A stretch of DNA of 64,000 nucleotides from Podarcis tiliguerta (taxonomy: Eukaryota): NCBI GenBank assembly GCA_965153285.1, contig OZ229123.1. One strand, given 5' to 3'. Position numbers: made by a program. Below, piece after piece: positions 52,401 through 55,400 of this stretch; within the stretch, counting starts at the first letter, position 1, and each line of letters begins with the position of its first letter.

Positions 52401-55400
52401 GTAGCAAAGCCTGGGCCAGAGACCCCAACTCCTTCTCTGACCTCATGTGATGAGCAAAACACAAATACTGGTGGCTGGGCCCTCCTGGCTGTCTGTATGC
52501 AACATCTCCAGGCGAAATGAATGAATGAATGAGTGAGTGATATACCTCCAGAAGATTGTGAGTACCAGGAGCAGGAACAGCAGGATGCCCAGGCAGAGAA
52601 AGAGCAGGTTGAACACATGCTTCAGGAGGTGGGACTCCCGATGTTGCTGCTGCCCGTTGCCTGTGGATAGAATCATTAGCACATCAGTACAGTGGAGGAT
52701 TGCCCTCCGTTTGCCAGAAAAGGAGCTGGCAACCGAAGGAATGAGCACAGTTGCCTTTTTGTAGGTTTCACTTTGGAATGGCAAACAAGCAGACACACAT
52801 TTCACCAAGAGCTTATTCAGCCTGTGTGGTGTGGGATATATTCAGCTCCAGTAAAATACTAAATAAATCTTTGGGGGATGAAACTGGTAGCCACAGAGAG
52901 TCTGTGTCTCACCCGGGAAGGCAGATTTTAAAAATCTGTCCCTTGAGAAGCTCACCTGACTAGTTCTGAGAAACACCAAAGACCTCCCCCCCCCCAAGAG
53001 ATGTGACCCTGTTTTTTTCAAATGGGGGGGGGCTTTGTTTTGTGAGTTGTAATTTCCTTTGAGCTTAAGAAAAACAAAACCTATGACACAAATGAGTGCA
53101 AGCAAGAGAAGTGGAATTTGTGTGTGTGTGGACCTGGGTGTGTGACACATCAAATGCAGCACAGCTTTGTACCAGACCTGGGGGGGCTTTCCACTTGGTG
53201 GTGGCGCTCCATGGACTCCACTGGCTTCTGTAGTGCATATTCACATCTGGAGTTTTGCAGCGAATTCTTGCCACGTACTCTACGCCAGACTTGAACTCGA
53301 AGCCCTCAATTTCCACCCATGTTTCTTTATTAACCCAGACCTTGTTCTGTGCCTGCTGTGAAGGATTGGAGCACAAGCAATGATCCCATTAGACAGAATT
53401 CAATTGGACAGGCCCTGTAAAAGGTAAAGGGACCCCTGACCATTAGGTCCAGTTGTGGACGACTCTGGGGTTGCGGTGCTCATCTCTCTTTACTGGCTGA
53501 GGGAGCCAGCGTACAGCTTCCAGGTCATGTGGCCAGCATGACTAAGCCGCTTCTGGCGAACCAGAGCAGCGCACGGAAACGCCGTTTACCTTCCCACCAG
53601 AGTGGTACCTATTTATCTACTTCCACTTTGATGTGCTTTCAAACCGCTAGGTTGGCAGGAGCAGGGACCGAACAACCCTAGGCTCTGTGGTTTAACCCAC
53701 AGTGCCACCCGCCACCTGCGTTTCTTTGTTGACCCAGACCTTGTTCTGTTTCTGCTGTGAAGGATCGGAGCACAAGCAATGATCCCATTAGACAGAATTC
53801 AGTTGGGTAGGCCCTGTAAGTCATAGTAAATGCCAGAAGGAGATGGGGGCTTCCGGGTGGAGACCTTATGCCCCTAACAGCTTGTTCAGACTCAACATTT
53901 GCTTGTGCTTCCATACAACCCTATTTTCTCAGTTGTAGATATCCCTGCTGCTCAGCCATTTGCCATCCCGTCAGTGTGCAAACCTTGACCAGATGTCTCT
54001 GTGCTGTGTGTCAGCCAAGACCCCTCCTGTCTCCTATCCTCCAGGGCATTGTGATCCTTGAGAAGGCAAGAGGTGGTGAAATGCCTCCCGCTTTCAGCCC
54101 CTTTCAGTGGCCTCTTACCTCCCAGGGTGCTTCTGTGGTCTTGAATGCCAGTTCCCATTGCCAGTCGTCCAGGAAAATGTCTTCATAGGCCTCTGGCCTC
54201 CTCCACTGCATCCAGCACTTGCTGGAACTCATGTTGCTCTGCAGGTCAAATGGTGGCTCACATTTGACTGGAAAGAGATAGAGAGTGGAGAGGAGGTGCT
54301 ACTGGGAGCCAAGAAGACCCCAACCCACCCAAAAGCAACACAGTGTGTATGTGCGCACTCATGGGACATCCTCCAGGGAGCTGCTGCTGCTCAGGGAGAA
54401 CTCAGCAGGGCTCACCAGGATGTCCAGGGCTGGAAAAAGCTCAGAAAGAGAGGTGAAGGGAAAAGGCTGGGGGCAAACAGACTGTTCCCAACAGCTGGAG
54501 GACACAAGGACCCTTGCCTCCAACCATGGCCACTCCTCCGTCCTGGAGAAGTTTGAGTCAGTCCTTCCACATGCAAGAAGACTCACTGTGCAGCCTGGGC
54601 TCATACATCACAAAGACGATGAGTCCGTTTCCGGAGGAGGAGGAGGCATACAAGGAGACGCTGTACTCATCGTTCTCTGTGAACTCGCCCTCTTCACTAT
54701 ACACAGAGCAGCTGAACTGGTCCAGGGCCTCCTCAGAGAGATGGCAGATGAGGTCACTGTTGAGACCAAGGAGGCTGCAAAACAGAGGAGAGGAGGAAGA
54801 AGGTCCTTCCTTGGGGTGGCCGCCCAGCATGAAGCATGGCTGGGGGAATGTGGCCGGTCGCCATAAGAGGAAGGAGAGAATGCCTCTGAGCATATGGAGA
54901 GTAACTCCTATCACAACACTCACATACCTGAACTTCCTGACCGAAGTGTCTGACTGTGTGTCCAAAAGGGATGAAAGGAGGGAGGGACAGGGATTTGTTT
55001 CCATGCAACCTGAAAATCTAAAGGTGCACCTTGGAGAAATTAAGGATTGCCCGGAGGTGCCACCAGGGAAGGGACTCAGACAAACCTCTGGGGGCTGGGA
55101 TGGGCGTGGTATTGGGCAGAGCAGCCTTTGACTCTGTGGTTGTGCCTAGCCCCATGGGCATTTTCTCCCAAGAAGATATACCCTGCTGTGGCTGTTGCTT
55201 TTTGCCCCTTGTGCTCCAGCCAAAGTCCTAGGAAGTCTGCTCTCTGGCTCCTGAAACCCATCAATCACCAACATCCCCTGGACTGTGCAGGCATCTCCTT
55301 TTCCCCACAGCTTGCAACCACAAATGAGAGATACACTGCCCGGGAACCCAGAGACACCCTGCAAGAAACCTGGCTCCTGCCAGCCCTCAGTCACCCCAGC

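What the first reader, a model, noticed from the sequence alone, without database searches (positions are those of the whole stretch)
53313..53819. SINE insertion into an IL9R coding exon apparently rescued by a 108-bp target duplication
Seen: a Sauria-type SINE (53421-53711) lies exactly between two 108-bp direct repeats (11 mismatches). Each repeat contains the intron end, the acceptor and the first ~43 nt of the WSXWS exon. In gene sense the order is acceptor plus exon start, SINE, then acceptor plus complete exon. Established: Sauria SINEs are mobilised by BovB/RTE-clade LINEs, and some RTE elements create unusually long target-site duplications. Inference: the element landed within the exon, and the long duplication regenerated an intact acceptor and exon, so the insertion became intronic rather than a knockout.
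Basis: partly seen in the sequence, partly recalled or inferred. Interest (0 to 1): 0.7.

Follow-up and report, generated by a model that had tools for sequence, protein, structure and literature searches.

The report
SINE with 108-bp target duplication in IL9R
A lizard jumping element entered the intron just ahead of an interleukin-9 receptor exon and copied an unusually long 108 bases of its target, leaving a spare, decaying copy of the splice site and exon start upstream of the intact exon: a tidy but not revolutionary example of a known process.

Summary
Two 108-nt direct repeats (53313-53420, 53712-53819; 97 of 108 identical) directly abut a 291-nt dispersed lacertid repeat (53421-53711). 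It is the strongest direct repeat in the 64-kb window. Each repeat carries 65 nt of intron end, the acceptor and the first 43 nt of the WSXWS exon of a minus-strand interleukin-9 receptor-like gene.

The element has the published Sauria/Squam1 hallmarks:
- an (ACCTTT)-type tail;
- a duplication that starts with T(T)A about ten bases after a TTT.

That signature lies at the intronic end of the duplication. The first nick was therefore in the intron, 65 nt before the acceptor. The second-strand break fell about 107 nt further on, inside the exon.

So the exon was not hit and then rescued. An ordinary intronic insertion carried a duplication about nine times the family norm (about 12 nt). This created an upstream decoy acceptor plus exon fragment.

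The downstream copy keeps the residues of six lacertid orthologues. The upstream copy has two replacements and runs into a stop in the SINE. All gene exons found in the window are open.

Orthologous DNA, genome-wide duplication lengths and splicing could not be checked. Verdict: a new example of a known kind, of modest interest.

The parts
53712..53819 (-). Upstream (gene-sense) copy of the target-site duplication. It comprises 65 nt of intron end with branch-point-like CTAAT, pyrimidine tract and AG (53755-53819), plus a 43-nt fragment of the exon start (53712-53754). This is a decoy acceptor with a decaying pseudo-exon.
   Evidence: The 40 nt before the AG differ from the true acceptor at 1 position. 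The exon fragment has 2 replacements (A to K, W to Q) and 3 synonymous differences. Read-through meets a stop at 53692-53694.
53421..53711 (-). A 291-nt Sauria/Squam1-type SINE, in sense orientation relative to the gene. Its tail ends in an (ACCTTT)-like repeat next to 53420. Its head is next to 53712. It lacks the box-B-bearing stretch seen in other copies.
   Evidence: Single copy in the window. No tRNA or Rfam match. Its antisense ORF is embedded in 18 proteins of 292 candidates; 15 are named and all of those are lacertid gene models. There are 23 cluster representatives. Tail and target signature match PMC13295347 and PMC6007223. Shortness.
53313..53420 (-). Downstream copy of the target-site duplication: 65 nt of intron end with the true acceptor (53356-53420) plus the first 43 nt of the functional exon (53313-53355).
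   Evidence: Its 14 codons give the same residues as 6 of 6 lacertid orthologue models.
53178..53355 (-). WSXWS exon of the IL9R-like gene. It is 178 nt, starts in phase 0, ends in phase 1, and is followed by a GT donor at 53176-53177.
   Evidence: tblastn 53364-53176, 95% identity to the P. lilfordi model.
53820..53849 (-). Flank of the first-nick site. TTT lies at 53828-53830, 9-12 nt before the first base of the duplication, which begins T-T-A at 53819-53817.
   Evidence: This pattern occurs at 577 of 127,950 positions (0.45%) of the window on both strands. The signature is described in PMC13295347.
53588..53593 (-). Best cryptic donor inside the SINE (AAG|GTAAAC, 7 of 9 consensus positions; the 9-mer spans 53584-53592). 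Together with the decoy acceptor it would define a 165-nt pseudo-exon that contains the in-frame stop.
   Evidence: This is a consensus count only, with no expression data.
54119..54268 (-). Preceding exon of the IL9R-like gene, with donor GAG|GTAAGA. The intron to the true acceptor is now 763 nt. Minus the 399 inserted bases it would be 364 nt.
   Evidence: tblastn at 96-98% identity. Donor read.
50904..57287 (-). Span of the IL9R-like coding exons found exon by exon: 57287-57204, 55556-55431, about 54782-54588, 54268-54119, 53355-53178, about 52661-52545, about 51911-51819, and about 51458-50904. All are open.
   Evidence: tblastn of three orthologue proteins against the window.

Best explanation
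A Sauria/Squam1 SINE, copied in by the Bov-B (RTE-clade) LINE machinery through target-primed reverse transcription, entered the intron upstream of the WSXWS exon of a lacertid interleukin-9 receptor-like gene. The endonuclease nicked the antisense strand at a canonical site 65 nt upstream of the acceptor (TTT, about ten bases, then TA), and the SINE tail primed there. The second-strand break then fell about 107 nt downstream, 43 nt inside the exon, instead of the usual 12 nt or so. Filling in the two long single-stranded flanks duplicated 65 nt of intron end plus 43 nt of exon. The head of the cDNA was joined at a GGTGG microhomology. The downstream copy stayed joined to the rest of the exon and kept its own branch point, pyrimidine tract and AG, so the gene still makes a normal exon. 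The upstream copy is a decoy acceptor followed by a pseudo-exon that runs into a stop in the SINE, and it has since drifted. Shown: the anatomy, the signature, the conservation of one copy and the decay of the other. Inferred: the order of nicks, the age (roughly 20-40 million years), and that the true acceptor is the one used.
For: The repeats abut the element exactly and are the best direct repeat in the window. The bases just outside the SINE ends do not match each other, so the element has no short duplication of its own. The tail ends in a CCCTTTACCTT(T) repeat, matching the published (ACCTTT)n tail. The duplication starts T-T-A, 9-12 nt after TTT, the pattern reported for Sauria SINEs including those of Podarcis muralis. 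That pattern occurs at 0.45% of window positions. The element is a dispersed lacertid repeat: its antisense ORF occurs at 61-88% identity inside 15 named models of 13 different genes, all lacertid, plus 3 unnamed records, i.e. 18 of 292 candidates. It also matches 23 cluster representatives. Copy A gives QAQNKVWVNKETWV, as in 6 of 6 lacertid orthologue models. The amphisbaenian Rhineura keeps the A and the W that copy B has lost. Removing copy B plus the SINE restores an exon collinear with the orthologues. All eight coding exons found are open. Long duplications are known rare outcomes of this mechanism: 1 of 25 ZfL2-2 insertions in wild-type cells had 1228 bp (PMC2666801, passages), and 'extremely long TSDs' are reported in L1 assays (PMC2912911, passages).
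Against: The duplication is about nine times the family norm. RTE-clade duplications are mostly 7-15 bp, and the SINE start lies about 12 nt after the nick in the published logos. No empty site or shared site in another species could be examined. SINE membership rests on the tail, the target signature and protein-level copies, not on a consensus alignment. No tRNA-like head is detectable, and the copy is 291 nt against about 360 nt for active copies. Only one copy lies in the window, so no local duplication-length sample exists. The 11 mismatches are clustered (4 adjacent pairs against 1.02 expected, P 0.009). Simple ageing does not predict this, and it makes the age estimate unsafe. The decoy acceptor is still intact, so some mis-splicing cannot be excluded.
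Confidence: 0.8

Rival explanations
1. Endonuclease-independent capture. A staggered or resected double-strand break spanning the intron-exon boundary was repaired with a SINE cDNA or DNA as filler, and the 108-nt duplication comes from fill-in of long overhangs unrelated to the Bov-B endonuclease.
For: The duplication length is far outside the family range. There is a microhomology (GGTGG) at the head junction. The mismatches are clustered, which could reflect error-prone repair synthesis.
Against: The tail is intact, and the junction carries the family's TTT...TA target signature, which occurs at 0.45% of positions. Endonuclease-independent insertions as I recall them usually lack such sites and tend to lose target bases or tail (recalled, not checked).
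Confidence: 0.08
2. The element's primary hit was in the exon, and the long duplication rebuilt acceptor and exon, turning a knockout into an intronic insertion.
For: The final structure is the same, and one end of the duplication does lie 43 nt inside the exon.
Against: The SINE tail, which marks the primed first nick, joins the intronic end of the duplication, where the endonuclease signature lies (PMC13295347). The exon end of the duplication meets the SINE head through microhomology, as expected of the late, variable second-strand step. With a normal stagger the insertion would have been intronic anyway.
Confidence: 0.05
3. A 108-nt tandem duplication of the intron-exon boundary arose first, and the SINE later inserted exactly at its junction.
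For: Small tandem duplications are common. Nothing in the window dates the two events separately.
Against: The SINE would have had to land precisely between the copies and make no duplication of its own. The bases flanking its two ends are unrelated. The family signature sits at the outer edge of the upstream copy, not at the junction.
Confidence: 0.03
4. Assembly artefact: two haplotypes or mis-joined reads placed in tandem.
For: None was found beyond the general possibility.
Against: The copies differ at 11 of 108 positions, including two amino-acid replacements. The window has no N. The unique SINE lies between the copies with clean junctions.
Confidence: 0.02

Closest known systems
Ordinary Sauria (Squam1) SINE insertions mobilised by Bov-B LINEs in squamates (PMC13295347; PMC6007223)
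   Same: The (ACCTTT)-type tail; a duplication starting with T about ten bases after TTT; a dispersed repeat in lacertids; frequent presence in introns and in gene models.
   Different: The duplication is about 107-108 nt instead of about 12 nt. The copy is 291 nt instead of about 360 nt and lacks the box-B stretch. The duplication spans a splice acceptor and 43 nt of coding exon.
Canine merle allele: SINE at the intron 10/exon 11 boundary of PMEL (PMC7349775, passages read)
   Same: A SINE sits at an acceptor, and its target-site duplication contains the original acceptor. The outcome depends on which acceptor the spliceosome uses.
   Different: The merle duplication is 15 bp. That SINE is in reverse orientation and its poly(T) acts as a pyrimidine tract, and the allele is a recent mutation with a phenotype. 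Here the SINE is in sense orientation, the duplication is seven times longer and includes exon sequence, and the allele appears old and tolerated.
Rare long target-site duplications in LINE assays (ZfL2-2 in DT40 cells, PMC2666801; L1 in HeLa cells as cited in PMC2912911)
   Same: The second-strand break falls far from the first nick, giving duplications of over 20 bp up to 1228 bp within the same mechanism.
   Different: Those cases are L2- and L1-clade elements in cultured cells. This is a natural, fixed-looking RTE-clade SINE insertion in a coding gene.

Membership tests
Sauria / Squam1 SINE | 3' end made of an (ACCTTT)n microsatellite-like repeat | tested here: met
   The tail reads CCCTTTACCTT(T) next to 53420. 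The repeat is named in PMC13295347 and PMC6007223.
Sauria / Squam1 SINE | Target signature: the duplication starts with T (of TA) about 10 nt downstream of TTT | tested here: met
   TTT lies at 53828-53830 and the duplication starts T-T-A at 53819. Background frequency is 0.45%. The test was applied after seeing the site, with 1 nt of freedom.
Sauria / Squam1 SINE | Many dispersed copies in squamate (here lacertid) genomes | tested here: met
   Tested indirectly. The antisense ORF is found inside 15 named lacertid gene models and 3 unnamed records (18 of 292 candidates), and matches 23 representatives. The window itself holds only this one copy.
Sauria / Squam1 SINE | tRNA-derived head with polymerase III boxes A and B; length about 360 nt | tested here: not met
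   ARAGORN and Rfam find nothing, and the copy is 291 nt. Of 12 named copies examined, 6 carry a stretch after AGAGTEQ that this copy lacks, 1 (P0023) skips it as this copy does, and 5 are uninformative. The length and boxes come from PMC10058329. I read this as a deleted or short-variant copy, not as non-membership.
Sauria / Squam1 SINE | Nucleotide similarity to the family consensus, and a 3' end shared with Bov-B | not testable with these tools
   No repeat library or squamate DNA collection is on hand. No Bov-B 3' end in the window matches the element.
Sauria / Squam1 SINE | Target-site duplication of about 10-13 nt | tested here: not met
   About 102-108 nt here, against the norm. This is the anomaly itself. 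The published scans accepted only perfect repeats of 10-49 nt.
Interleukin-9 receptor (class I cytokine receptor) | WSXWS motif in the membrane-proximal fibronectin-type domain | tested here: met
   WSPWS is present in the translation of 53179-53355.
Interleukin-9 receptor (class I cytokine receptor) | Closest to IL-9R rather than to other receptors of the group | tested here: met
   The Lacerta orthologue against solved structures: IL-9R 7ox5_A at 5.8e-22, with the next best, IL-4R alpha, at 4.5e-4. Sources name the orthologues 'interleukin-9 receptor(-like)'. The neighbouring gene is IL21R.
Interleukin-9 receptor (class I cytokine receptor) | A curated domain model scoring above its cut-off | tested here: inconclusive
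   Pfam gives only sub-threshold matches, for example CRLF2-like D2 at 15.4 bits against a cut-off of 27.3.

The most novel reading that the evidence does not exclude
Long target-site duplications of about 100 nt may be a regular, overlooked outcome of Bov-B-driven SINE insertion. The published squamate scans accepted only perfect repeats of 10-49 nt. Such events would copy splice sites and exon fragments next to a SINE that supplies donors. That would seed decoy or poison exons, here a possible 165-nt stop-bearing exon that could damp IL9R output. The clustered mismatches between the copies could then be a footprint of error-prone gap filling at insertion rather than of age.
Probability: 0.12. 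Interest if true: 0.55.

Novelty: new member of a known kind. Interest (0 to 1): 0.3.

Why it matters
This is a clean natural example of how variable the second-strand step of target-primed reverse transcription can be, even for an RTE-clade partner whose duplications are usually about 12 nt. It also shows how a long duplication can copy a working splice acceptor and part of a coding exon. It flags a blind spot in published duplication surveys, which accept perfect repeats of at most 49 nt. It also offers a testable case of a decoy acceptor that an immune-receptor gene has tolerated, possibly for tens of millions of years. It does not reveal a new mechanism.

Tried and rejected
- **Other copies in the window.** I looked for more copies of the element to sample duplication lengths, and found only the element itself.
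- **tRNA-like head.** ARAGORN and Rfam found nothing.
- **Pfam.** Searches on single exons and on the Lacerta orthologue gave nothing above the cut-offs.
- **Long duplications in RTE elements.** One search returned 0 papers. One search returned 2 papers, neither about RTE duplications. A paper on the schistosome RTE element SR3 reports 10-12 bp. I recall that the first description of nematode RTE-1 mentioned long duplications, but I could not find or read it.
- **SINE duplications that copy a splice acceptor.** Searches gave nothing closer than the merle case. A search for 'Sauria SINE' with 'exon' and 'splice' (6 papers listed) showed no report of this locus in the listing. I read passages of only one of those papers.
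- **Excess mismatches in the exon part of the repeat.** 7 of 43 in the exon against 4 of 65 in the intron is not significant (Fisher P 0.11).
- **Tandem duplication of a 399-nt unit.** Rejected, because no second SINE lies upstream of copy B.
- **Short open pseudo-exon.** I considered a 39-nt in-frame mini-exon from the decoy acceptor to CAG|GTGGCG. It stays open, but the donor matches only 6 of 9 consensus positions, no better than sites that the true exon ignores.

Full report
**What is there.** The stretch 53313-53819 holds two 108-nt direct repeats, 53313-53420 and 53712-53819.
- They are identical at 97 of 108 positions. The 11 mismatches are 10 transitions and 1 transversion.
- They directly abut a 291-nt element at 53421-53711.
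- In a self-comparison of the whole window, this pair is the best direct repeat among the 9 non-self pairs found (E 6e-35).
- The window has no N and is 47% G+C.
- Chance is not an explanation. An assembly artefact is unlikely, given about 10% divergence and a unique element between the copies.

**The gene.** It lies on the minus strand.
- The exon 53355-53178 translates to 59 residues with WSPWS.
- Against the large protein collection, 4 of 4 candidates were significant. Two Podarcis 'interleukin-9 receptor-like' models are 97% identical, and two Rhineura isoforms are 78% identical.
- The cluster look-up added models from Zootoca vivipara, Lacerta agilis, Podarcis lilfordi and P. muralis.
- The Lacerta protein's best solved relative is the interleukin-9 receptor (7ox5_A, 5.8e-22), far ahead of IL-4R alpha (4.5e-4). 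Pfam gave nothing above its cut-offs.
- I matched three of these orthologue proteins to the window exon by exon with tblastn. Eight coding exons lie between 57287 and 50904, and all are open.
That step is left out, so nothing here rests on a joined coding sequence.
- The window is from a lacertid lizard close to Podarcis lilfordi, with exon matches of 87-100%. It is not human.

**Anatomy of the repeat.** In gene sense each copy holds 65 nt of intron end, followed by 43 nt of exon. The intron part carries a branch-point-like CTAAT about 34 nt before the AG, a pyrimidine-rich tract and the AG.
- The downstream copy (A) continues into the rest of the exon.
- The upstream copy (B) continues into the SINE and meets a stop at codon 21 (53692-53694).
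- Copy A encodes QAQNKVWVNKETWV, exactly as 6 of 6 lacertid orthologue models do. Rhineura also keeps the A and the W.
- Copy B has A to K and W to Q, plus three synonymous differences.
- One copy is therefore conserved and the other drifts.

**The element.** No repeat library or squamate DNA is available, so I tested family membership indirectly.
- *Tail.* It ends in an (ACCTTT)-like repeat. This is the microsatellite-like end reported for Sauria SINEs (PMC13295347, Results, Discussion 4.1 and legends read; PMC6007223, one Results section and passages read).
- *Target signature.* Those papers report that Sauria SINE duplications start with T, about ten bases downstream of three T's. Here TTT lies at 53828-53830 and the duplication starts T-T-A at 53819. 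The pattern is found at 577 of 127,950 positions in the window (0.45%). I applied this test after seeing the site.
- *Copy number.* The antisense ORF of the element recurs inside 18 proteins of 292 candidates. Fifteen are named, all lacertid, from 13 different genes: 13 P. muralis models, 1 P. lilfordi and 1 Zootoca. It also matches 23 cluster representatives in the library without names. It is therefore a dispersed lacertid repeat.
- *Against membership.* No tRNA-like head is detectable. The copy is 291 nt, whereas active Squam1 copies are given as about 360 nt with boxes A and B (PMC10058329, passages).
- *The missing stretch.* I examined 12 of the 15 named copies, leaving out three MPDZ models. 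Six carry a stretch after AGAGTEQ that the window copy lacks, one (P0023) skips it as the window copy does, and five are uninformative. I read this as a deleted or short-variant copy.

**Mechanism.** The SINE lies in sense orientation, so its tail joins the intronic end of the duplication. In target-primed reverse transcription the tail marks the first nick, which is where the family's target signature sits.
- The endonuclease therefore cut in the intron, 65 nt before the acceptor.
- The other end of the duplication, 43 nt inside the exon, meets the SINE head at a GGTGG microhomology. That is what the late and variable second-strand step would leave.
- The bases just outside the two SINE ends are unrelated. 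The element thus has no short duplication of its own, and the 108-nt repeat is its target-site duplication.
- Its length is about nine times the norm. The papers give 7-15 bp for most RTE-clade elements, not above 13 bp for these SINEs, and a SINE start about 12 nt after the nick.
- Those scans accepted only perfect repeats of 10-49 nt, so they could not have seen a case like this.
- Long duplications are documented as rare outcomes in other LINE clades: 1 of 25 ZfL2-2 insertions had 1228 bp, and 'extremely long TSDs' occur in L1 assays.

The structure and the duplication reading stand. The 'exon hit rescued by the duplication' does not.
- With the usual stagger, the same event would have been an ordinary intronic insertion.
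- No target base is lost in a staggered break, so nothing needed to be regenerated.
- The net change is 399 extra bases in the intron, which grows from 364 to 763 nt. The addition includes an intact decoy acceptor that differs at 1 of the 40 positions before the AG.
- If the decoy were used, the best donor downstream is AAG|GTAAAC in the SINE (7 of 9 consensus positions). This would give a 165-nt exon with a stop. A 39-nt open mini-exon is possible but has a weak donor.
- These are consensus counts, not expression data.
- The open exons and the conserved copy A suggest that the gene has tolerated the insertion.

**Age.** Jukes-Cantor distance between the copies is 0.109 overall and 0.064 in the intron part.
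- I used two rates: 0.0013 per site per million years, as quoted in PMC13295347, and about 0.0016, as its table implies. These give roughly 20-42 million years, with 95% limits from about 5 to 77.
- If that is right, close relatives will share the insertion, and the empty site must be sought in more distant lizards. Lacertid divergence dates are recalled, not checked.
- One caution applies. The mismatches are clustered, with 4 adjacent pairs against 1.02 expected (P 0.009; post hoc). Some may have arisen together, perhaps at insertion, and that would make the event younger.

**What stayed unchecked.**
- Orthologous DNA from other lizards.
- The genome-wide distribution of duplication lengths for this family.
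- A nucleotide alignment of the element to a family consensus.
- Any transcript evidence.
Figure S4 of PMC6007223 and Tables S5-S6 and Figures S6 and S9 of PMC13295347 may hold length distributions that bear on how rare 108 nt is.
- A listing of 6 papers for 'Sauria SINE' with 'exon' and 'splice' showed no report of this locus. I read passages of only one of them.

**Verdict.** This is a new example of a known kind, of modest interest, with one follow-up worth doing: a scan for long duplications in this SINE family.

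Noticed in passing
window 62170-63129 and 63703-63762, minus strand: The gene upstream of the IL9R-like gene on the same strand ends here. The 319-residue open frame matches interleukin-21 receptor models of skinks, geckos, birds and fishes (26 hits at E up to 1e-5 among 3326 candidates; best 8e-40, 42% identity). A box-1-like exon lies at 63703-63762. The gene order is therefore IL21R, IL9R-like, PDPK1.
   Followed up: partly
window 40071-43015, minus strand; G+C-rich stretch about 46200-47500: Exons of 3-phosphoinositide-dependent protein kinase 1 lie downstream of the receptor gene. 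The frame at 41445-41690 matches PDB chain 1z5m_A at 1.2e-20. Long open frames on both strands around 46200-47500 suggest a CpG-island promoter; this was not tested.
   Followed up: partly
window 50953-50959 (run of seven C, minus strand) and 50901-50940: In the last exon of the IL9R-like gene the window ends ...DSPPGCSGPH-stop, where the lacertid orthologues with a full C-terminus end ...DSPQAVLGPTSHV-stop. One extra C in a homopolymer run would explain it. It is either a real variant or a sequencing error, and it changes only the last ten or so residues. A 20-nt tandem duplication follows the stop.
   Followed up: partly
window 53313-53420 versus 53712-53819: The 11 mismatches between the duplication copies are clustered (runs of 2, 2 and 3 adjacent bases): 4 adjacent pairs against 1.02 expected, P 0.009. 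The cause is unexplained. Multi-base events, possibly at the time of gap filling, are one idea.
   Followed up: partly
window 53421-53711; proteins P0011, P0015-P0028: Fragments of this SINE are translated inside annotated lacertid gene models of 13 unrelated genes, including uL13m, lipoyl synthase, SEC22c, ABCC1, mS33, TRAF1-like and MPDZ. These are either real exonisations or annotation errors in those records.
   Followed up: no
window 40510-40719, 37838-37941, 32819-32899: Three self-complementary (palindromic) stretches of 83-219 nt at 73-82% identity turned up in the window self-comparison. The one at 40510-40719 lies in a low-complexity, proline- and glycine-rich open-frame region between PDPK1 exons.
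   Followed up: no
window 57840-57997: A TA-rich microsatellite, translated as runs of YI, lies upstream of the signal-peptide exon of the IL9R-like gene.
   Followed up: no
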